64,000 nucleotides of DNA from Candidatus Kaiserbacteria bacterium (GTDB lineage Bacteria; Patescibacteriota; Minisyncoccia; Phycocordibacterales; UBA2100), in assembly GCA_028286585.1 (NCBI GenBank), contig JAQBRI010000005.1, positions 13,973-77,972 on the forward strand. Direction: 5' to 3'. The notes below the pieces were generated by a model. The model saw nothing but the letters and a program-made list of their open reading frames with translations, had not been told where the DNA came from and made no database searches. Within the stretch, counting starts at the first letter, position 1. Every line of letters begins with the position of its first letter. Positions 5,472 to 50,792 of this stretch are shown here, piece by piece. The position numbers and the translations under genes are program-made.

Positions 5472-7566
5472 CTATTGTCTTATTTTTTGTGACAGAAACA
5501 CCTGCATAGGTAGTGCAGCGCATCTCAAACAATGCCGAACCAACAGCAGAAAGCGTAACCGAAGTTGATCCCTCATTACGAGCTGTGATTGGTTTTGCAT
5601 TATATAGAATTGTACATGGATTGTTTGTACTCATACCGGTTGATGACCATATTACCAGAACATTTGATCCAAGTCGCGGAGTCGTCGCCTGGACGATTAT
5701 CTGTGCCGTTGCTGGAACATTTTGTGAAGTTGGTGTACCTGGGTTGAGTGCTTGCTGCAAGTTGGTCGATGCTGACGTATTGAGCTGTATTTGCTGCGGA
5801 GTATATTGTTGCTGTCCAGTTATTGGGTTGTATGTGGCGCCTCCGCTTGAAGAACCACCTGCCGAAGAGCCGCTTGATCCATAGGATGGCGCTTGTGGGT
5901 ATGATTGCGTCGGAGCATATTGCGTTTGAGGGTATCCGCTTGAGTATTGATTCTGAGGACTTGCTCCTACAGGAGCCGTTGCATACGCTGGTGCAGGGCT
6001 GGCATACGCAAATGGACTGCCTTGGAATTGAGTGGTCTGTGTACCTTCTCCGGCAAAACTAAACGGACTCGAAGAATTGGAAGAATACGCAGGAGCAGGA
6101 CTGCTATATGAAGGTCCGCTTGCGGCGGTTGGCGTTCCGCCCATATTAGTTTCTATTTTTCCAACAGCCTGAGCCAGCGTAATGTTTCCATTACCAAAAT
6201 TCACTGGATTGTTTGCAATAGAATATGATTGCAGTCCGATACTGTTTACCGTTGCGTCTGGATTGTTGGCGTATGCCTGTATGAACTTTGGTCCGTCCCC
6301 AACACCGATGTTGTGTATCAAATACGCTCCAGTTGCAGGATCAAGACCTGCCTGGTCAATGCGATCTCCATATTTGTTCAAATAATACGAGACCGACGAG
6401 GCAGTTACTTGTGCCGATGTTTCCGGATCAAATCGCAGTGATGGTGAAAGAGGTACGCCACCGTTCATGCGGGCACTATCTATTGCCCAGGTACTTGCTG
6501 TGTATTGAAAGAGCCCGCACGCTCCACTTCCTGAGCAGATGTTTGGATTACCGCCACTTTCTACTTTCATGTATTTGGCTAGCACACCGTCGGCCTTGCC
6601 GGTGAGCCCGTACTGGTCTTCAACTTTTTTTAGCATTTCGCCGTACCTTCCGCCAGGTAATGGTTTGTTTGGATCTTCTTGCGGAGCAGCAAAAGTTGAT
6701 CCAGCAGATCCAGCAGTATCTATCGATTTTTGCTGCTCTTCAGTACCAACTCCATTTGAAACAAGTGAACTAAATCCATCTGGCTGAAGCGAACTTATTT
6801 TGTTTACAGTATCAGGATTCAGCGTGATACCAAGATCGTTTTGCGCAGTCTGCTGCGCCTGGGCTACTTTTGATGGGTCTCCGGATACCAAATTTTGGAG
6901 CATGTCATATGCCTGATTTTTTTGTGAGGAATCCTGCGAAATAGTATCAGCCTTTTCTTTTTCGACACCAAGGTTTTGTAATGCTTGTGACAGCTTTGTG
7001 CTGTCGATCGCTCCATCAGTTCCCTTGATGCCGCTGATTGCCTGCTGTGCGACAGACTGTGCTGCAAGCCCACTCTGTTGTGTAAGCAAAGCGTCTATTT
7101 TTCCTTTTTGTTCTGGGTCACATTTTGAAACATCTTTCTCACTTGCCGGAGTTGAGCCGATAGCCGGAATCGAATAATGTACCGTTGCACACTCTGTTTG
7201 GAGCGTTGGCTTACAAGCGTCAGGTACGCACCAATTTAAATCCGCAGTAAGTGGAACTTTGGGCAAAATCATATTTGCCTTTGGTGTTATAGTTTTTTTG
7301 CCGGCAGCATCGATGGTTATGATGTCACTAATGCACTTATCGCTGTTTTCGGTACTCGCGTTTGCAGTTGTCTGTTTTGTTTTTATCTGCGCAGAAATTA
7401 ATTTTTTTATACAAAGTGAGGATGCTGTTTTTGGATCAAGTATTTTTGGCGCAGCGGTGGTCGCCGCAAAAAGTACCATCGGAGAAAATGCACACGCGAA
7501 GATTGCTACTGGCAAAAGAATACGTGTGAAATACATACGGTACATTGTACCTTTTATTCTATGCAA
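5461..7566 (-). CDS. secreted lysozyme-like (lytic transglycosylase/SLT-type) protein with S/P/A/Y-rich low-complexity linker
   Basis: The product has an N-terminal signal/TM segment. Its central motif KVESGGNPNICSGSGACGLFQYTASTW matches the catalytic E-S...GLMQ signature of SLT domains. The distal part is a SPAPAY/SYPQ low-complexity region. Confidence 0.55.
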   Translation of the reverse strand: MHRIKGTMYRMYFTRILLPVAIFACAFSPMVLFAATTAAPKILDPKTASSLCIKKLISAQIKTKQTTANASTENSDKCISDIITIDAAGKKTITPKANMILPKVPLTADLNWCVPDACKPTLQTECATVHYSIPAIGSTPASEKDVSKCDPEQKGKIDALLTQQSGLAAQSVAQQAISGIKGTDGAIDSTKLSQALQNLGVEKEKADTISQDSSQKNQAYDMLQNLVSGDPSKVAQAQQTAQNDLGITLNPDTVNKISSLQPDGFSSLVSNGVGTEEQQKSIDTAGSAGSTFAAPQEDPNKPLPGGRYGEMLKKVEDQYGLTGKADGVLAKYMKVESGGNPNICSGSGACGLFQYTASTWAIDSARMNGGVPLSPSLRFDPETSAQVTASSVSYYLNKYGDRIDQAGLDPATGAYLIHNIGVGDGPKFIQAYANNPDATVNSIGLQSYSIANNPVNFGNGNITLAQAVGKIETNMGGTPTAASGPSYSSPAPAYSSNSSSPFSFAGEGTQTTQFQGSPFAYASPAPAYATAPVGASPQNQYSSGYPQTQYAPTQSYPQAPSYGSSGSSAGGSSSGGATYNPITGQQQYTPQQIQLNTSASTNLQQALNPGTPTSQNVPATAQIIVQATTPRLGSNVLVIWSSTGMSTNNPCTILYNAKPITARNEGSTSVTLSAVGSALFEMRCTTYAGVSVTKNKTIVVQ

Positions 7567-35801: not shown

Positions 35802-35857
35802 AGCATCCGATCTCTTTCGATCTTTTTCACGACAGGTTCTCATGCATACATTCAAAT

Positions 35858-35896
35858 AGCCGCGCATCGATATCGATGCGCGGCTGATTCTTTATT
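35858..35896. terminator. bidirectional terminator (28-bp perfect palindrome)
   Basis: The palindrome agccgcgcatcgatatcgatgcgcggct is followed by gattctttatt. It lies between the converging + and - genes. Confidence 0.5.
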
Positions 35897-35927: not shown

Positions 35928-35965
35928 CCGTACCTAACTCCCGCGGTCGCGATACTTAGGTACGG
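35928..35965. repeat. 38-bp palindromic element, copy 1 (ccGTACCTAAC-tcCCGCGGTCGCga-tacTTAGGTACgg)
   Basis: It is an imperfect direct repeat of the copy at 36598..36635 (30/38 identity). Each copy has internal arms ACCTAAC…GTTAGGT and lies 3 nt past the stop of the flanked gene. Confidence 0.6.
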
Positions 35966-35967
35966 AA

Positions 35968-36537
35968 TTATTTTAGTTTAAATAAGCGTTTTAAATGTCC
36001 GTCATTCTCAATTGCATCCGCGACTATATACAAGACATCATTACCAGTTTTAAAATCTGCCTTGAGTAACGTTATGAGATCTTCACAATCATATGGATAT
36101 GCCCATACACTGTGTTGTAAATGAACAAATCCGATTGTCTGTAGTGTTTGACGAATATGATCGCGTAGTTTCTTGCGGTGTTCCGGTATGTCAAACATCA
36201 GTAATCTCCATTTATGGTCCCAATGTTTTGGACGTTTATTTTTGTATTCAATCAATTTCAATTTATAGAGCAGTGCCTCTCCTTTTACTGTAATAGTTAA
36301 ATAACCGTTTTTCCATGTGAGTGCACCAGATTTAACCAGCCTGCTGCTTGTTTTATAAACGATATCCTTTTGACGCGATGACTGTATTAATCCGAGCTTT
36401 GTCATTGCACCAATAACGTTTGGAGCAACCGCCAAGACAGCAAGCATACCTGCAGTTTGGATGCCAGCGAGTACTAAGTGTTGTATCTGTCCCCGACGCG
36501 CACGAAGTTTGACCCCTTGTTCGATGACCCCCATCAT
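35968..36537 (-). CDS. PaaX-like / Cas2-fold (VapD-like) putative regulator, wHTH N-terminus
   Basis: The 189-aa product has the C-terminal motif WRLLMFDIPEHRKKLRDHIRQTLQTIGFVHLQHSVWAYP (PaaX_C / Cas2-like). The N-terminal winged-helix-like region is IVYKTSSRLVKSGALTWKNGYLTI. Confidence 0.5.
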   Translation of the reverse strand: MMGVIEQGVKLRARRGQIQHLVLAGIQTAGMLAVLAVAPNVIGAMTKLGLIQSSRQKDIVYKTSSRLVKSGALTWKNGYLTITVKGEALLYKLKLIEYKNKRPKHWDHKWRLLMFDIPEHRKKLRDHIRQTLQTIGFVHLQHSVWAYPYDCEDLITLLKADFKTGNDVLYIVADAIENDGHLKRLFKLK

Positions 36538-36597
36538 ATGAGTATTCTACCGTGACTTCCTCACATCGATATATACGCTATGCACACCTTATGGAAA

Positions 36598-36635
36598 GCG
36601 TACCTAACATCCGCGGTCGCAGGAGTTAGGTACAT
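36598..36635. repeat. 38-bp palindromic element, copy 2 (gcGTACCTAAC-atCCGCGGTCGCag-gaGTTAGGTACat)
   Basis: This copy lies about 60 nt upstream of the start codon of the PaaX-like gene. It has the same arms as copy 1 and the conserved core CCGCGGTCGC. Confidence 0.6.
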
Positions 36636-36678: not shown

Positions 36679-38577
36679 TTACCGGACTTCCCAGCCAGCT
36701 GCTTTGAGAGCAAGGGTGATGCTTTCGACATGACCGTTTGCGTCTTCTTCGAAGAGCGTTCGGTCCATTGATTGGAATACCATTCGAAATGCGTAGGACA
36801 CGCGGCCTTCTTTTTCAAACTGGTCAAAAAGTCTAATACTTGTGAGGAGTTCTCCGCCCTGGGATTGAATTTTATTTTGCACTTCTTCTACACTGGTTCC
36901 GGCAGGGCACCACAAAGAAATATCGCGCACAATTGCTGGGTATTTTGAAAATGCTTTATATCGTTCTGTTTGCGAAAGTGGAAGTTCGTCGTAGGAATCG
37001 GTAAGCATGAGTGCGTTTTCAAATATCTCAAGTGGAATTTCGGCAGCGATGGCTGTTTTTGTAGCTTTTGATAAGTTGACTCCAGCGCCTTTTTCGAGAA
37101 CCTGAACAAAAGTATCGATGGTGTCATGCTTTTTTAGTTTCTCAACTGCAAATGCGATGTGCACATGTTCTGCATTTGCATACCAGACGGTTCCTATTTC
37201 AAATAGTTTAACCTGATTGAGCCCGAGAATATCTTTGTTGCGAATATTTTTCTCGAGCGAATCAGACAGTTGTGCAATAAGCGAATCGCGCAAATATGGC
37301 CGTACACCATCTACCTTATTTGCAACAATCTGTTCGCCACTTTCGGTAAACACACTCGTATACACTTCACTAAATCCGCGTTCAACCAAAAAGTTTCTCA
37401 AAAAATCGATTACATAAAATTGATGATTTACCGCTGGTGCAATTTCACTTTCGGGCAATTCAATGGCAGGCACTGTGTCGTACCCGATAATTCGCCCAAC
37501 CTCTTCTATCAAATCTTCTGGAATTGTAAGGTCAATACGTTCAAATGGAATATGTACTTCAAAAACGCCTGCCTGTTCCTTGTATGCGAGACTGAGTCTT
37601 TGAAACACGTCAGCAATCTCAGATCCGGAAATAGCATATCCTAATACGCCCTGAATTCTCTCTTCGGTGACCGCGATGATTGTGTGTTCTTCCTGTGTTT
37701 GATCATGTACAGCATATCCAATCACCTCTCCTCCCGCAATCAAAGTAATAAGCTTGGTAAGTTCTTGCACACCGTAGTAACAAAATTGCGCGGGCAGTTT
37801 GTTTTCGTAGCGACTCGATGCATCGGTACGGATCTTTAACCCTTGAGCTGTTTTTCTAATTGTTGGACCATCAAATGAACCAACTGTGAGCAGTATATTT
37901 TTTGTTTCAGTGGTAAGTTCTGCTGCACGTCCACCCTTGATGCCCGCAACATCAAGTGGTGCACCACTTACCGCATCAGTAAGCATCAGTATATTTGCAG
38001 GAAGGTCATATGACACTCCTCCCAAAAGATCGATATGTTCTCCTTCTTTTGAATATCTGATGTGTATCCCTTTTGAACTATCTTTTTCTTGGAGTTTGTC
38101 GTAATCAAAAACGTGGCCCGGTTGTCCCAATCCAAACATCACATAGTTTGTTGCATCAACAACATTATTGATCGATCGCTGTCCCAATGATTGCAATCGC
38201 TCTACAAGCCACGAGGGCGACGGTCCTACTGTTACACCATCGATACGTGCCAATATATGCACAGGCGCAACTGCACTATCATCAACTTTGAGTAGTATAT
38301 TTTCTGAAATATTTGTAACGGGCGGTGCAGATTTTGAAAGCACATCATCCTTGATAGGAAATTTGAATATCGCTGACAATTCTTTTGCGATACCGCGATG
38401 CGAAAGACAATCATGTCCTCTGTTAGGTGTGACCTTTACATCAAAGACTGAGTCATCGCCAACATGTTCAATTCCATCTATTTCAAATACATGAAATGTG
38501 AGCGCGTCAGAAATCTCCGCATCAGTAGGAAGCGGTTCTTCAAAATATGTTTGTAACCAATTACGAGAAATTTTCAT
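36679..38577 (-). CDS. pheT: phenylalanine--tRNA ligase beta subunit (short bacterial form)
   Basis: The N-terminus is MKISRNWLQTYFEEPLPT. The B3/B4, B5 and C-terminal catalytic-like domains are present. The 632-aa product lies directly downstream of pheS. Confidence 0.9.
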   Translation of the reverse strand: MKISRNWLQTYFEEPLPTDAEISDALTFHVFEIDGIEHVGDDSVFDVKVTPNRGHDCLSHRGIAKELSAIFKFPIKDDVLSKSAPPVTNISENILLKVDDSAVAPVHILARIDGVTVGPSPSWLVERLQSLGQRSINNVVDATNYVMFGLGQPGHVFDYDKLQEKDSSKGIHIRYSKEGEHIDLLGGVSYDLPANILMLTDAVSGAPLDVAGIKGGRAAELTTETKNILLTVGSFDGPTIRKTAQGLKIRTDASSRYENKLPAQFCYYGVQELTKLITLIAGGEVIGYAVHDQTQEEHTIIAVTEERIQGVLGYAISGSEIADVFQRLSLAYKEQAGVFEVHIPFERIDLTIPEDLIEEVGRIIGYDTVPAIELPESEIAPAVNHQFYVIDFLRNFLVERGFSEVYTSVFTESGEQIVANKVDGVRPYLRDSLIAQLSDSLEKNIRNKDILGLNQVKLFEIGTVWYANAEHVHIAFAVEKLKKHDTIDTFVQVLEKGAGVNLSKATKTAIAAEIPLEIFENALMLTDSYDELPLSQTERYKAFSKYPAIVRDISLWCPAGTSVEEVQNKIQSQGGELLTSIRLFDQFEKEGRVSYAFRMVFQSMDRTLFEEDANGHVESITLALKAAGWEVR

Positions 38578-39315: not shown

Positions 39316-39379
39316 CGAACAAGTATACGTCGGGTTTCAATACTTAACAATAGAGCCATTTTGTGCTATAATACCGAAC

Positions 39380-46243: not shown

Positions 46244-46900
46244 TTATTCAGCAGTCTCTTCTGTTGGTGCTTCTACTGGCTCTGCAAGTGATTCCTTTGT
46301 TGGAAGCTGCTCTTCTTCTTTTACTTCTTCGTATGAAGTAACTGATGCTACTGTTTCTTCTGGATTTGTCTTGAGTTCGGCACTTGATGGAAGCTTGATA
46401 TCAGCAACAGTGAGATGATCTCCCAAATTTACGAGTGATGAAATATCAACCTCAAGATGGTGAGGCAATTGTGCGGCAGAGACTTCGATCTCGATTTCAT
46501 GCATTGCCTTAACAATGATAAATCCAGCCTTTTCTGCTTGTGATTCTCCAACAAAGTGCAATGGAACTGCAACTTCGATCTTCTTACCCTTTTCGAGAAC
46601 ATAAAAATCTGCATGGATAACGATACCGGTCACTGGGTGAATTTGAACATCGTGGATCAAGGTCTCCTTTGGAGCTCCGATGCCTTCGAGCATGACGAGA
46701 GTTGTTTCTCCTGCCTCTTTCCAAACACTTTCAAGCTTACGAGCGTCTACAGTGATAGCTTGTGCAGCCTCCTTTTTTCCGTAAAAAACAGCAGGAGTCA
46801 TTCCCTTTGAACGTAAAAGTTCAGTGGATTCCTTTCCCATGTCTTCTCGTGCCGTAACTTGTAGTGTTAACATGGGCTGCAGTATACCGTTTTGTGGCAT
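46244..46900 (-). CDS. rplY: 50S ribosomal protein L25 / general stress protein Ctc
   Basis: The product has LTLQVTAREDMGKESTELLRSKGMTPAVFYGKK and an acidic C-terminal tail. The likely start is MLTLQV. Confidence 0.8.
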   Translation of the reverse strand: MPQNGILQPMLTLQVTAREDMGKESTELLRSKGMTPAVFYGKKEAAQAITVDARKLESVWKEAGETTLVMLEGIGAPKETLIHDVQIHPVTGIVIHADFYVLEKGKKIEVAVPLHFVGESQAEKAGFIIVKAMHEIEIEVSAAQLPHHLEVDISSLVNLGDHLTVADIKLPSSAELKTNPEETVASVTSYEEVKEEEQLPTKESLAEPVEAPTEETAE

Positions 46901-46967
46901 TTTTGCAAGGATTCTATCGCTGTACGTATTTTAATGGTCGTTAAAATGCGTACATTTTAGAGAAGGT

Positions 46968-47934: not shown

Positions 47935-49599
47935 TTATGAACGATTGATCACAAGTCGTGGTACCCCACCGACTGTTTCCATGGTCATTGAGTCACCTTT
48001 TTGAGTAACCGCTACTGGTGTAGCTACTACTGTTGGTGCAACAACTGGCTGTACAGGAGTTGTAATAGCCTTTGCTACAAAGTTAACTGGCTTTACCGGC
48101 TTGTATCCCTTGATAGCTTGCGTTGCGAGTCGAGCAGCGCCACCGTTCATATACACGATAAGGTATGCGCCAGAGACAGCAAAGAGTCCGAGAGCAAACC
48201 AGTAGATTGAATTTCCAAGAACTCCGAAATCAAAACCGGTATAAGGGATTTGAGAGAGTGAAATTGCTGCAACATTGTTTCCAACATTGATGTTCACACT
48301 ACAATTTGAAGTTTGTCCGTTCGAGCTAGTGATAGTAAGCACGTAGTTGGTTGAACTGTATGGATGCACGGTCAACGTACCTGTTGTGTTTACATTTCCA
48401 ACTCCCGAGAGTGAAGCGTAATTTGCTCCAGTTGCAGCCCACGCAAGTACTGTTGAATCACCACTACGAACTGATGTTCGAGTCGCACTGATGTAACAAG
48501 CAAATGCCTGATTGTTGATGTACTGCACTGGCTGTGAGTAGATCGGTGTAACAACGTTGTTGTTATTATTGTTATTGTTGATCACAACTGGGTTGTATGA
48601 ATTCGAGTTTTGGTACGAGTATCCTGGGTATGAAGTGTATACGATCGGTTGCGGGTAAGTATTTCCACGGCAGTTTGGATAGACACCAGTAAGACCCTGT
48701 TGCGCACATGTTGGTACCGGTTGTGGAGGGTATGAACAGTGTGGGTATGTTCCGATCATGCCTTGCTGCACACAGGTTGGAATTGGTTGCTGTGGGTAAG
48801 TAGGGTATGAGGGATATGAAGGAGTTCCAGGGTATGTTGGGTACGAAGGCGTTGAAGGTCGTGAAGGAGTACTTGGGTAACTCGGTGCGTATTGCACTGA
48901 TGATCCCTGTGCTATTGAGTAACCTTGTGAAGAGTAGCCCTGTGAACTTCCGTAACCGCTTGAGTAACTACTGCCATATGATGGAGAGTAGGAACTATCG
49001 TACGATGGTGAGTATGAGCTGTCGTATGACGGTGAGTAAGAAGAATCGTATGAAGCCGTATATGAAGAATCATATGATGGAGAATACGCAGAGTCGTACG
49101 ATGGACTGTATGCACTATCGTACTGAGGTGAATATGATGAGTCATATGATGGTGAGTACGCTGAATCATATTGTGGAGAATACGATGAATCGTATGATGG
49201 AGAATACGAACTATCGTAAAATGGTGAGTATGAGGAATCATACGACGGAGAGTATGAACTGTCGTAAAATGGTGAGTACGAAGAATCATAAGAAGGACTG
49301 TATGAAGAATCATACTGTGGAGAATATGAAGAGTCGTATGACGGACTGTATGATCCACCGTAACTTGGTGAATATGAGGAATCGTATCCCCCACTGTATG
49401 AGCCTGAGTAGTCAGACACATCACCACAACAACCCTCGTCAAATTGTGCATTTGCAATTACCGGCATTACTGATGTAACAACAGTAAAAGCTGCCACAAT
49501 GAATGCGATTCGTGAACTTTGTATAAAATTTGTCATATGATTTTTTTCTAATTCGCACGTAATAATTAACTGCTTACTAATTTTGAGGAGTAAAAACAA
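47935..49599 (-). CDS. cell-surface repeat protein, paralogue 1 (20 tandem DSSYSPSY repeats, Asn8 tract, Ig-like domain, C-terminal IPYTG–TM–basic tail)
   Basis: The product has a signal peptide (start probably MTNFIQ at nt 49536). It has perfect 24-nt periodicity across about 480 nt, then QGYSSQGYSIAQGSSVQYAP and a P/Y-rich linker. The shared C-terminus is LSQIPYTGFDFG + hydrophobic helix + YMNGG + basic residues. Confidence 0.6.
   Translation of the reverse strand: MFLLLKISKQLIITCELEKNHMTNFIQSSRIAFIVAAFTVVTSVMPVIANAQFDEGCCGDVSDYSGSYSGGYDSSYSPSYGGSYSPSYDSSYSPQYDSSYSPSYDSSYSPFYDSSYSPSYDSSYSPFYDSSYSPSYDSSYSPQYDSAYSPSYDSSYSPQYDSAYSPSYDSAYSPSYDSSYTASYDSSYSPSYDSSYSPSYDSSYSPSYGSSYSSGYGSSQGYSSQGYSIAQGSSVQYAPSYPSTPSRPSTPSYPTYPGTPSYPSYPTYPQQPIPTCVQQGMIGTYPHCSYPPQPVPTCAQQGLTGVYPNCRGNTYPQPIVYTSYPGYSYQNSNSYNPVVINNNNNNNNVVTPIYSQPVQYINNQAFACYISATRTSVRSGDSTVLAWAATGANYASLSGVGNVNTTGTLTVHPYSSTNYVLTITSSNGQTSNCSVNINVGNNVAAISLSQIPYTGFDFGVLGNSIYWFALGLFAVSGAYLIVYMNGGAARLATQAIKGYKPVKPVNFVAKAITTPVQPVVAPTVVATPVAVTQKGDSMTMETVGGVPRLVINRS
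48924..49410. repeat. coding tandem repeat array, about 20 copies of a 24-nt unit (encodes D-S-S-Y-S-P-S-Y with Q/F/A/G variants)
   Basis: Visible in the translation: YDSSYSPSYDSSYSPFYDSSYSPSYDSSYSPQYDSAYSPSY. The nucleotide units are imperfect (synonymous variation). Confidence 0.7.
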
Positions 49600-50207: not shown

Positions 50208-50254
50208 GAATTCGTGAGTGCCTGGCTGACATCAATATCTTGATATCAATCAGG
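50208..50254 (-). promoter_or_regulatory. conserved 5' leader / operator-like element, copy 1
   Basis: GAATTCGTGAGTGCCTGGCTGacATCAAtatcTTGATatCAATCAGG lies 30–75 nt upstream of the start codon. It contains the inverted repeat ATCAA-N4-TTGAT and is about 80% identical to copy 2. Confidence 0.45.
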
Positions 50255-50335
50255 CAATTGCGAAAATAAAAAACTAAAAGTAGTGTGGCGGAAGGGTAAA
50301 GAATTTCTTCTTCAATGTTCCCTTCCGCCAATAGA

Positions 50336-50683: not shown

Positions 50684-50730
50684 GAATTCGTGAGTGCCTG
50701 GCTGGTATCAAATAATTGATAACAATCAGG
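50684..50730 (-). promoter_or_regulatory. conserved 5' leader / operator-like element, copy 2
   Basis: GAATTCGTGAGTGCCTGGCTGgtATCAAataaTTGATaaCAATCAGG lies upstream of the 50336..50650 gene. Confidence 0.45.
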
Positions 50731-50792
50731 TACTAATGAAAAAGTATTGGCGGAAGGAGCATGATGAATCATGTTTCCTTCCGCCGAATTGA

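What the first reader, a model, noticed from the sequence alone, without database searches (positions are those of the whole stretch)
35928..36635. PaaX/Cas2-fold gene bracketed by 38-bp palindromic direct repeats with integron attC-like core/inverse-core (ACCTAAC…GTTAGGT)
Copies at 35928–35965 and 36598–36635 are 30/38 identical. Each is an imperfect palindrome whose arms match the attC consensus inverse core RYYYAAC (ACCTAAC) and core GTTRRRY (GTTAGGT), around a conserved CCGCGGTCGC centre. They flank a single 189-aa gene whose product has the WRLLMFDIPE…HLQHSVW motif of PaaX C-terminal / Cas2-VapD-like proteins. One gene between two attC-like sites, with the site just past the ORF's 3' end, is the arrangement of a gene cassette. 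Alternatively the palindromes are autoregulatory operators for the wHTH-containing product. No integrase is visible in the window, and 38 bp is shorter than typical attC sites.
Basis: partly seen in the sequence, partly recalled or inferred. Interest (0 to 1): 0.55.

Follow-up and report, generated by a model that had tools for sequence, protein, structure and literature searches.

The report
Mini-PaaX regulator flanked by own operators
The two 36-bp palindromes are most likely the binding sites of the small PaaX-like DNA-binding protein encoded between them, an arrangement shared by hundreds of Patescibacteria genomes, and they are not integron attC sites.

Summary
Two about 83%-identical 36-bp imperfect palindromes (35929-35964, 36599-36634) bracket a 189-aa gene with a winged-helix N-terminal domain and a Cas2-like (PaaX_M) domain. 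There are no other copies in 64 kb.

The integron/attC reading fails. No integrase was found. The 'core' GTTAGGT is in one copy only, and the AAC/GTT bases vary across the family. The closest relatives have neither the gene nor a solo site.

In 67 of 81 homologous loci the gene has matching upstream and downstream palindromes with locus-specific arms. In 53 loci the upstream 36-mer ends exactly on the A of the ATG and carries a -10 box at -12..-7, so it is a promoter-sized operator on a leaderless gene.

Residues of the predicted recognition helix and wing covary with the outer bases of the site, for example Arg62 with C5 and Ser/Ala62 with T5. Cas2-like residues 126 and 142 covary with the centre. 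The window's pair fits this code. E. coli PaaX binds TGATTC-N27-GAATCA, which is the same layout.

Three points are unexplained: the conserved downstream copy, orphan copies of the palindrome family elsewhere (87 of 113 sampled), and the perfect symmetry of the arms. I rate it a new variant of a known kind, of moderate interest.

The parts
36599..36634 (.). Upstream 36-bp palindrome, the 'far' operator. It reads TGTACCTAACTCCTGCGACCGCGGATGTTAGGTACG in gene orientation. Its centre is 79 nt before the A of the ATG, and it lies 44 nt after the pheT stop.
   Evidence: It fits the family pattern of TRYAC ends and a C-GACC-G centre, and fits the protein-DNA code.
36544..36549 (-). -10 box TAGAAT, 6 nt upstream of the ATG. 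It is the probable promoter of a leaderless mRNA for the gene and is separate from the palindrome in this locus.
   Evidence: Read from the sequence. About 10 of 54 window genes, including pheS and the GT2 gene, have TAnnnT starting 11-13 nt (mostly 12-13) before the ATG. No -35 match was found by the consensus scan.
35968..36537 (-). Gene X: a 189-aa 'mini-PaaX' with an N-terminal winged helix (helix 56-70, wing 73-82), a Cas2-like domain (110-173) and no PaaX C-terminal domain.
   Evidence: Pfam PaaX_M 1.2e-20. NCBIfam PaaX scores 33.5 bits against a cutoff of 264.55, and Cas2 scores 24.9 against 24.5. The AF2 model has pLDDT 74.6. Foldseek top hits are E. coli PaaX 8a39 and Rv0674 3kfw, then Cas2 proteins.
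35929..35964 (.). Downstream 36-bp palindrome, CGTACCTAAGTATCGCGACCGCGGGAGTTAGGTACG in gene orientation, starting 3 nt after the stop codon.
   Evidence: A downstream copy is present in 73 of 81 family loci.
35857..35886 (.). G+C-rich hairpin with a T-run, an intrinsic terminator for the convergent 196-aa gene. It probably also ends the X transcript. It is context, not part of the repeat.
   Evidence: A hairpin in the equivalent position is the only element between pheT and the convergent gene in relatives L203, L204 and L205, which lack X.
46920..46955 (.). Possible additional 'orphan' site: GTAC ends and a GACC centre with different arms, and GTAC-to-GTAC spacing 2 bp shorter than canonical. 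It lies just upstream of the rplY promoter.
   Evidence: It is absent from the same intergenic region of the closest relative L206, where the promoter is conserved.

Best explanation
The gene encodes a small dimeric DNA-binding protein of the PaaX type: a winged helix plus a Cas2-like dimerisation domain, without the C-terminal effector domain. The two palindromes are its own cognate binding sites.

Each 36-bp site is read like a PaaX operator. The two winged helices contact the outer about 5 bp (TRYAC, here GTAC), which lie 26 bp apart. The Cas2-like dimer sits over the dyad (C-GACC-G).

In most family members the upstream site is exactly promoter-sized: positions 1-6 sit where a -35 would (3/6 match to TTGACA, an inference from reading the consensus, not scored), then a 17-bp spacer, the -10 at positions 24-29, and the last base as the A of the ATG (+1). 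Binding there would shut off the protein's own leaderless transcript.

In this window the upstream site has moved 61 bp away from a separate TAGAAT leaderless promoter. Here the two sites bracket the transcription unit. They probably act together as auxiliary operators or roadblocks, keeping pheST read-through and convergent transcription out and limiting the gene's own expression.

Shown by computation: the family-wide site architecture, the promoter geometry and the protein-DNA covariation. Inferred: actual binding, dimer geometry, repression, and the role of the downstream copy.
For: (1) Of 81 homologous loci, 74 have a family-type palindrome upstream, 73 downstream and 67 both. The background is 9 such palindromes in 457 kb.

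(2) The upstream and downstream copies of one locus share 25.2 of 32 arm positions, against 15.5 between loci.

(3) The upstream centre sits at -17 in 53 loci. In those, TAnnnT occupies -12..-7 in 85%, against 32% on the mirror arm and 26-33% in downstream copies. Leaderless promoters are common in this genome and in relatives.

(4) Covariation over 77 pairs: the top residues are 75, 59, 58, 62 and 64 (predicted recognition helix and wing) against half-site positions 2-5. Residue 126 pairs with positions 13-15 and residue 142 with the central dinucleotide. Six of the top 9 residues fall in residues 56-82 (hypergeometric P about 0.001).

(5) Readable rules emerge: R62 with C5 in 34 of 35, S/A62 with T5, F/Y59 with G4, W75/D58 with GT, D142 with a TA centre and H/N/K142 with GG/GA. 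These also hold inside one clade. The window's protein and site obey them.

(6) Arm mismatches show no G:T excess over A:C (45 versus 46), as expected for duplex recognition and not for an RNA hairpin.

(7) E. coli PaaX binds TGATTC-N27-GAATCA and represses its own promoter by blocking RNA polymerase (PMC9493321). The best structural match is PaaX.
Against: No binding experiment exists, and part of the covariation could be shared ancestry. A winged helix reading about 5 bp does not explain two things: why the inner 8-10 bp of each arm stay perfectly symmetric, and why identical 36-mers recur in unrelated contexts.

The downstream copy has no established role. Helical phasing between the two sites is weak (R 0.23, p about 0.03 uncorrected).

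Of 113 unbiased palindrome hits, 87 are not next to an X gene. Fifteen of 65 classifiable orphans lie between convergent genes, and neighbouring genes show no functional theme.

In this window the upstream site does not overlap the promoter, so simple occlusion is not shown for this locus. The Cas2 catalytic-position Asp (FDIPE) is invariant in the family alignments and is unexplained by a pure regulator.
Confidence: 0.7

Rival explanations
1. REP/RAYT-like system. The palindromes are a low-copy family of small elements of about 40 bp that spread by copy-and-paste. The flanked Cas2-fold protein is their cognate, possibly nucleolytic, partner, much as RAYT genes are flanked by their own REPs.
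For: An unbiased metagenome scan found 87 of 113 sites away from any X gene, 46 of them perfect 18/18 palindromes, in all kinds of intergenic region. The same 36-mer, including the same asymmetry, recurs in different contexts. Two near-identical copies lie on one contig (L089 and L142). Unit borders are about CA|TACAC..GTGTA|TG. The X unit, and separately a roughly 50-bp segment carrying a palindrome upstream of rplY, are present in the window but absent from the closest relative. Each paralogue has its own arm sequence. The Cas2 catalytic-position Asp is invariant.
Against: Density is only about one per 30-70 kb. There is no HUH/Y1 or other transposase domain. The protein-DNA covariation and the promoter geometry fit a duplex-binding regulator. 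There is no strand bias in arm mismatches. No palindrome hits occur in 2.9 million viral contigs. X sits in neighbourhoods shared across genomes.
Confidence: 0.12
2. Integron-like gene cassette. The palindromes are short attC-like recombination sites, and the gene is a mobile cassette inserted by a tyrosine recombinase encoded elsewhere.
For: One gene lies between two similar sites, with a site just past its 3' end. ACCTAAC/GTTAGGT match RYYYAAC/GTTRRRY in the pheT-side copy. The gene is absent at this position in the three closest relatives.
Against: No Phage_integrase domain was found in 20 tested ORFs, and there is no cassette array. The site is 36 bp and symmetric. The downstream copy reads CTTAGGT. 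Positions 6-9 (the AAC) vary freely across the family, while the TRYAC ends and the centre are what is conserved. The gene has its own promoter, and in most loci the site is the promoter. Empty sites carry only a terminator and no solo site. The same position after pheT is occupied in distant relatives. The family is essentially absent from viral contigs.
Confidence: 0.02
3. RNA-level elements. The palindromes act as hairpins in the transcript, as a terminator or 3' stabiliser downstream, or as a translational occluder upstream. They could be cut or bound by the Cas2-like RNase domain.
For: The hairpins are stable. The downstream copy lies inside the 3' UTR, before the terminator. In canonical loci a read-through transcript from the upstream gene would bury the ATG in the stem. 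Cas2/VapD relatives include endoribonucleases (established knowledge; PMC3351183, listed).
Against: G:T mismatches are not favoured over A:C (45 versus 46). Only 12 of 87 orphans have a T-run nearby. With a leaderless start at the last base of the palindrome, the upstream copy is not in the mRNA. Covarying residues map to a DNA-reading helix and wing.
Confidence: 0.05

Closest known systems
PaaX, the phenylacetyl-CoA-responsive repressor of the paa genes (E. coli, Pseudomonas; PDB 8a39, 3l09)
   Same: It has an N-terminal winged helix followed by a Cas2-like dimerisation domain (Pfam PaaX_M 1.2e-20; best Foldseek hit 8a39). Its operator is two short inverted motifs far apart (TGATTC-N27-GAATCA, 39 bp), compared with TRYAC-N26-GTRYA (36 bp) here. 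It represses its own promoter by excluding RNA polymerase (PMC9493321).
   Different: The protein ends at 189 aa, with no PaaX_C effector domain. It scores 33.5 bits against the 264.55-bit cutoff of the PaaX equivalog model. There are no paa genes nearby; the neighbours are pheST and gyrB. The whole 36 bp is palindromic with a conserved centre. A second site follows the gene. The promoter is leaderless. There are several paralogues per genome, each with its own arms.
CRISPR-associated Cas2
   Same: It shares the ferredoxin-like fold and the motifs FDI(PE) and LQxSVW, including the Asp at the catalytic position. It scores 24.9 bits against the 24.5-bit TIGR01573 cutoff. Structural matches to Cas2 in Cas1-Cas2 complexes follow the PaaX hits. 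Some database records name relatives Cas2.
   Different: It is fused to a winged helix. No CRISPR array is present in the window, and no Cas1 domain was found in the 20 ORFs tested. It occurs as a stand-alone gene in housekeeping neighbourhoods.
REP elements and their RAYT genes
   Same: A single-copy chromosomal gene is flanked on both sides by its cognate palindromes of about 36-40 bp. Related palindromes are scattered in intergenic DNA. Different gene paralogues go with different palindrome variants.
   Different: The protein is not an HUH/Y1 transposase. Copy number is low, about one per 30-70 kb. The GTAG/CGTC end tag is absent. The upstream copy doubles as the promoter.
Integron attC sites and gene cassettes
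   Same: One ORF lies between two imperfect palindromes, and there is a chance match to RYYYAAC/GTTRRRY in one copy.
   Different: See the membership test. Length, symmetry, conservation pattern, promoter content, absence of an integrase and empty sites without a solo copy all differ.

Membership tests
Integron gene cassette / attC | An attC of about 57-141 bp with R''-L''...L'-R' boxes (RYYYAAC ... GTTRRRY) and an imperfect, strand-specific fold | tested here: not met
   The sites are 36 bp and symmetric. GTTRRRY is present only in the 36599-36634 copy; the other reads CTTAGGT. Across 81 loci the AAC/GTT positions vary, while the TRYAC ends and the C-KRYM-G centre are conserved. There is no strand bias in mismatches.
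Integron gene cassette / attC | An IntI tyrosine recombinase with attI and Pc nearby, and arrays of cassettes | tested here: not met
   No Phage_integrase hit in the 20 window ORFs tested, 199-494 aa. Only two copies of the repeat occur in 64 kb, and there is no array. The rest of the genome was not available.
Integron gene cassette / attC | A promoterless mobile ORF, with the empty site retaining one recombination site | tested here: not met
   The gene has its own TAGAAT leaderless promoter here, and in 53 loci the palindrome itself carries the -10 box. Relatives lacking the gene (L203-L205) have only a terminator and no palindrome.
PaaX (TIGR02277 equivalog) | A winged-helix N-domain plus a Cas2-like middle domain | tested here: met
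   PF20803 at 1.2e-20. [quoted passage not shown] Foldseek top hits are 8a39 and 3kfw.
PaaX (TIGR02277 equivalog) | A C-terminal effector (PaaX_C) domain and a full-length score above the family cutoff | tested here: not met
   The protein is 189 aa and ends after the Cas2-like domain. It scores 33.5 bits against a cutoff of 264.55. No PaaX_C hit was found.
PaaX (TIGR02277 equivalog) | Association with phenylacetate catabolic genes | tested here: not met
   The neighbours are pheS, pheT, two small unknown genes and gyrB. Family loci sit in varied housekeeping contexts.
PaaX (TIGR02277 equivalog) | An operator of two short inverted motifs about 27 bp apart that overlaps the regulator's own promoter | tested here: met
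   TRYAC-N26-GTRYA is seen in 74 upstream and 73 downstream sites. The site overlaps -35 to +1 in 53 loci. In this window the site lies 61 bp upstream of the promoter instead. Binding itself was not tested.
CRISPR Cas2 | The Cas2 fold with a conserved N-terminal Asp | tested here: met
   TIGR01573 scores 24.9 against 24.5. FDIPE Asp116 is invariant in 112 sequences. Cas2 structures appear among the Foldseek hits.
CRISPR Cas2 | Encoded next to cas1 and a CRISPR array | tested here: not met
   No repeat array is present in the window. The neighbours are housekeeping genes.
REP / RAYT | A gene flanked by cognate extragenic palindromes that also occur dispersed in the genome | tested here: inconclusive
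   Flanking is met in 67 of 81 loci. Dispersed orphans exist (87 of 113) but at low density. A per-genome census was not possible.
REP / RAYT | An HUH/Y1 (IS200/IS605-like) transposase fold and a GTAG/CGTC end tag | tested here: not met
   Only PaaX_M and Cas2 hits were found. His139 and His142 (HLQH in the window) are not conserved. The palindrome ends are TRYAC.

The most novel reading that the evidence does not exclude
The palindromes are not only operators. They would be a low-copy, self-propagating family of repeats of about 40 bp whose spread or upkeep depends on the Cas2-fold protein they flank, giving a RAYT-like partnership built on a Cas2 fold. In that picture a Cas2-type dimer sits on the dyad of a repeat of about 36 bp while end-binding domains measure its length. 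That geometry recalls Cas1-Cas2 on a CRISPR repeat and could bear on how Cas2 was recruited to repeat recognition.
Probability: 0.1. Interest if true: 0.85.

Novelty: new variant of a known kind. Interest (0 to 1): 0.48.

Why it matters
Patescibacteria (CPR) have tiny genomes, few recognisable regulators and no cultured models. This family comprises 415 clusters at 50% identity with E below 1e-30, and often has two or three paralogues per genome. It may therefore be one of their main sequence-specific DNA-binding families.

The comparative data already give three testable things. The first is a readable recognition code: which residue reads which base. The second is a promoter-sized operator that ends on the start codon of a leaderless gene. 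The third is an unusual design with a second, more perfect site just after the gene.

The family also shows a Cas2-fold domain apparently tracking the central bases of a palindrome of about 36 bp, which is of interest for the history of Cas2. For genome annotation, these genes should not be called Cas2 or PaaX, and the palindromes should not be mistaken for attC sites, REPs or terminators.

Tried and rejected
RNA-hairpin reading: arm mismatches were counted by type. G:T equals A:C (45 versus 46), so there is no transcript-strand signature.

Terminator reading: only 12 of 87 orphan palindromes have a T4 run nearby. The window has ordinary terminators elsewhere.

Downstream copy as a leaderless promoter of the next gene: only 1 of 73 has an ORF starting at its end. 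The next gene is convergent in 36 of 69 loci.

Regulon theme: Pfam scan of 67 genes whose starts face orphan sites gave assorted housekeeping families with no enrichment.

DNA looping: centre-to-centre distances show only weak 10.5-bp phasing (R 0.23, p about 0.03 before correction, sequences not independent), so this is inconclusive.

Phage or mobile-element origin: one partial (Cas2-domain only) homologue and no palindrome hits in 2.9 million viral contigs.

Defence system: PADLOC gives only weak Cas2 matches.

Solved structures by sequence: none.

Literature: six full-text searches found no description of this arrangement. The library is incomplete.

Paralogue of X in the window: none.

A degenerate canonical palindrome hidden at -17 in the window: none seen by eye in the sequence (reading, not a computed test).

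Full report
**1. The observation**

In register they are 35929-35963 and 36599-36633, 83% identical over 35 nt.

A pattern built from the shared bases occurs only at these two places in 64 kb, with 0.00 expected from shuffles. The 8-mer GTACCTAA occurs only in the four arms.

Each copy is an imperfect palindrome, with 14/18 and 13/18 complementary pairs around a 4-nt centre. Each folds as single-stranded DNA at -10 to -14 kcal/mol, z -3.4 to -5.1.

ACCTAAC is in both copies. GTTAGGT is in the pheT-side copy only; the other copy reads CTTAGGT.

The gene between them (35968-36537, minus strand, 189 aa) hits Pfam PaaX_M at 1.2e-20 and Cas2 weakly. One palindrome starts 3 nt after its stop codon. 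The other lies 61 nt upstream of its ATG and 44 nt after the stop of pheT, which with pheS lies upstream on the same strand.

**2. The protein**

NCBIfam scores it far below the PaaX equivalog cutoff (33.5 bits against 264.55). It sits on the cutoff of the Cas2 model (24.9 against 24.5). This explains why public records call relatives either PaaX or Cas2.

An AlphaFold model built from 112 homologues (pLDDT 74.6) shows three parts:
- a long N-terminal helix;
- a winged helix, with helix 56-70 and hairpin 73-82;

Its best structural matches are E. coli PaaX (8a39) and Rv0674 (3kfw), followed by Cas2 proteins. It has no PaaX C-terminal domain. I call it a mini-PaaX, or 'X'.

The family is large:
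- At least 589 loci in GTDB species representatives.
- 415 clusters at 50% identity with E below 1e-30, nearly all about 190 aa.
- Named sources are Kaiserbacteria, Paceibacterota and related Patescibacteria.
- Several genomes carry two or three paralogues.

**3. The flanking palindromes are a family trait**

I fetched 80 homologous loci and scanned both flanks. Of 81 loci including the window, 74 have a family-type palindrome upstream, 73 downstream and 67 both. Elsewhere in the same 457 kb there are only 9 such palindromes.

The arms differ from locus to locus, but the two copies of one locus match each other. They share 25.2 of 32 arm positions, against 15.5 between loci.

What is conserved across the family is the outer end (T-R-Y-A-C) and the centre. 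The centre is C-[TATA, GGTC, GACC, GATC or GGCC]-G. The asymmetric centre GGTC/GACC flips freely between the two copies and between orthologous loci.

The 'attC-like' AAC/GTT bases of the window fall in the variable part.

**4. The upstream copy is usually the promoter**

In 53 loci the centre of the upstream palindrome lies exactly 17 nt before the A of the ATG. The last base of the 36-mer is therefore that A.

In those loci the gene-proximal arm breaks symmetry to give TAnnnT at -12..-7 in 85% of cases. The figures are 32% on the mirror arm, 26-33% in downstream copies and 25% in displaced upstream copies.

The layout is:
- positions 1-6 in the place of a -35 (T..AC of TTGACA);
- a 17-bp spacer;
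- the -10 box at positions 24-29;
- 6 nt;
- +1 on the start codon.

This makes a 36-bp palindrome the size of a sigma-70 promoter on a leaderless gene. The -35 part is my inference from the geometry.

Leaderless genes with a -10 box 6-7 nt before the ATG are common in these genomes. Examples are purD in L003, L010 and L012 and about 10 of 54 genes in the window, including pheS and X itself.

The window belongs to a minority of about 11 loci in which the upstream palindrome lies further away (centre -79 here). In these, X has a separate TAGAAT box (36544-36549).

**5. Evidence that the protein reads these sites**

Over 77 protein/site pairs I computed mutual information between every variable residue and every half-site position. 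The strongest signals are:
- residues 58, 59, 62 and 64 (predicted recognition helix) and 75 and 79 (wing) with half-site positions 2-5;
- residue 126 (first helix of the Cas2-like domain) with positions 13-15;
- residue 142 (the LQxSVW strand) with the central dinucleotide.

Six of the nine top residues fall in residues 56-82, which hold 23 of the 130 residues tested (P about 0.001).

The rules are simple:
- Arg62 goes with C at position 5 in 34 of 35 cases, and Ser/Ala62 with T.
- Ile/Val59 goes with A at position 4, and Phe/Tyr59 with G.
- Trp75 and Asp58 go with GT at positions 2-3, and Tyr/Arg/Phe75 with Glu58 go with AC.
- Asp142 goes with a TA centre, and His/Asn/Lys142 with GG or GA.

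The rules hold within the large 'AC' clade and recur in separate sub-lineages, which argues against pure shared ancestry.

The window's protein (D58, I59, K62, S64, W75, D126, H142) and its site (CGTACC...CGCGA/G) fit every rule.

Mismatches in the arms show no excess of G:T over A:C (45 versus 46). The symmetry is therefore not that of an RNA hairpin on one strand.

**6. Comparison with PaaX**

A review states that E. coli PaaX binds TGATTC-N27-GAATCA. It also states that PaaX represses its own Px promoter by steric hindrance of RNA polymerase. It describes PaaX as a winged helix, a dimerisation motif and a C-terminal domain (PMC9493321).

The sites here have the same layout: short inverted end motifs 26 bp apart. 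The working model is a PaaX-type dimer, with winged helices at the ends and the Cas2-like dimer over the dyad.

**7. Tests of the cassette idea**

- No Phage_integrase domain was found in the 20 window ORFs tested, 199-494 aa.
- There is no repeat array in the window.
- X sits in several gene neighbourhoods that are shared between genomes. The window's pheT-X-...-gyrB order is shared with L002 and L065, whose GyrB is 78% identical.
- The closest relatives lack X at this position. By GyrB these are L203 (96%) and L204 (91%); L205 was chosen by PheT (51%) and has no gyrB in the locus. Between pheT and the convergent small gene they have only a terminator hairpin and no solo palindrome.
- Viral contigs hold one partial homologue and no palindromes.

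The gene is thus gained or lost as a whole unit on a moderate timescale. Nothing points to attC-type recombination.

**8. What the operator model does not explain**

An unbiased scan of metagenome contigs used the commonest family pattern, TACAC-N8-CGCTATAGCG-N8-GTGTA. It gave 113 non-redundant sites, of which only 26 are next to an X-like gene.

The 87 orphans have these properties:
- They are mostly perfect palindromes (46 at 18/18).
- Symmetry usually extends to CA...TG.
- They lie in co-directional (34), divergent (16) and convergent (15) intergenic regions.
- They sit next to assorted housekeeping genes.

Identical 36-mers, even with the same asymmetry, recur in different contexts, and two near-identical copies lie on one contig. 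Different palindromes can cluster, as in L114 and L135. Overall density is about one per 30-70 kb.

The window has one orphan-like site upstream of the rplY promoter (46920-46955). The closest relative lacks it, although the promoter is conserved.

These facts leave room for a REP/RAYT-like reading. So does the invariant Asp at the Cas2 catalytic position. I give that reading about 0.12.

The role of the downstream copy is open:
- It is not the promoter of the next gene.
- The next gene is convergent in 36 of 69 loci.
- Phasing with the upstream copy is weak.

Auxiliary operator, roadblock and insulator roles are all inferences.

**9. Verdict**

The attC/cassette interpretation is not supported.

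The system is a new variant of a known kind: a PaaX-type autoregulator stripped of its effector domain. It has a promoter-sized palindromic operator, a second site after the gene, a readable recognition code and scattered extra sites. It is widespread in Patescibacteria and, as far as six literature searches show, undescribed.

Noticed in passing
window 46920-46955: An orphan-like palindrome (GTACGCATTTTAACGACCATTAAAATACGTAC) lies between fba and rplY, just upstream of the conserved rplY promoter. It has the same GTAC ends and GACC centre as the X sites, but the spacing is 2 bp shorter. It is absent from the closest relative (L206), where the intergenic region is only 43 bp.
   Followed up: yes
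window 46873-46900: The rplY ORF listed from 46900 is probably 9 codons too long. Homologues are 206-209 aa, and a conserved GGTATACT box lies 7 nt before the second ATG (46873), which suggests a leaderless start there.
   Followed up: partly
window, many genes (e.g. 39316-39335, 39360-39379, 36538-36549): About 10 of 54 genes have a -10-like TAnnnT starting 11-13 nt (mostly 12-13) before the start codon, and only 12 of 54 have a Shine-Dalgarno-like motif. Leaderless expression seems common in this genome.
   Followed up: partly
window 50208-50266 and 50684-50742: A 59-nt repeat (80% identical) contains a different palindrome (GCCTGGCTGACATCAATATCTTGATATCAATCAGGC). It precedes two of three consecutive small genes with signal-peptide-like N-termini and no Pfam hits, each after a hairpin. 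It could be another operator/promoter module, and the stretch looks G+C-richer by eye.
   Followed up: partly
window 48800-49390 and 52180-52890: Long tandem repeats with periods of 24, 33, 39 and 123 nt lie inside two large ORFs (47935-49599 and 51587-52990; the latter has a weak DUF2963 hit). The two ORFs also share an 88%-identical 75-nt segment.
   Followed up: no
L037:5899-5934, L149:11214-11249, L176:1027-1062, L197:10084-10119: A different perfect palindrome recurs in several genomes: CTTGTTTATGATTCGCG-G[AGT]CC-CGCGAATCATAAACAAG. It has the same centre type but other ends, and its sequence is conserved across genomes. It may be the site of another protein or another paralogue class.
   Followed up: no
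L108:4141-4176 and 6508-6543: Two palindromes that differ at a single base lie 2.3 kb apart. They bracket a homospermidine-synthase-like gene and a uracil-DNA-glycosylase-like gene (my reading of the translations; Pfam not run), not an X gene.
   Followed up: partly
L135:1213-1486; L114:4597-4699: Two or three family-type palindromes with different arms cluster within 100-300 bp of intergenic DNA. In L135 they lie next to a G+C-rich stretch that looks like a structured RNA gene.
   Followed up: no
window 36679-38577 versus L203: PheT is only 62% identical to that of the closest relative, whereas GyrB is 96% and L25 is 93% identical. PheT evolves unusually fast in this lineage, or has been replaced.
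   Followed up: no
L082:3001-3258: The only homologue in 2.9 million viral contigs matches just the Cas2-like half (residues 101-186, 40% identity). It is probably a genuine stand-alone Cas2-like gene.
   Followed up: no
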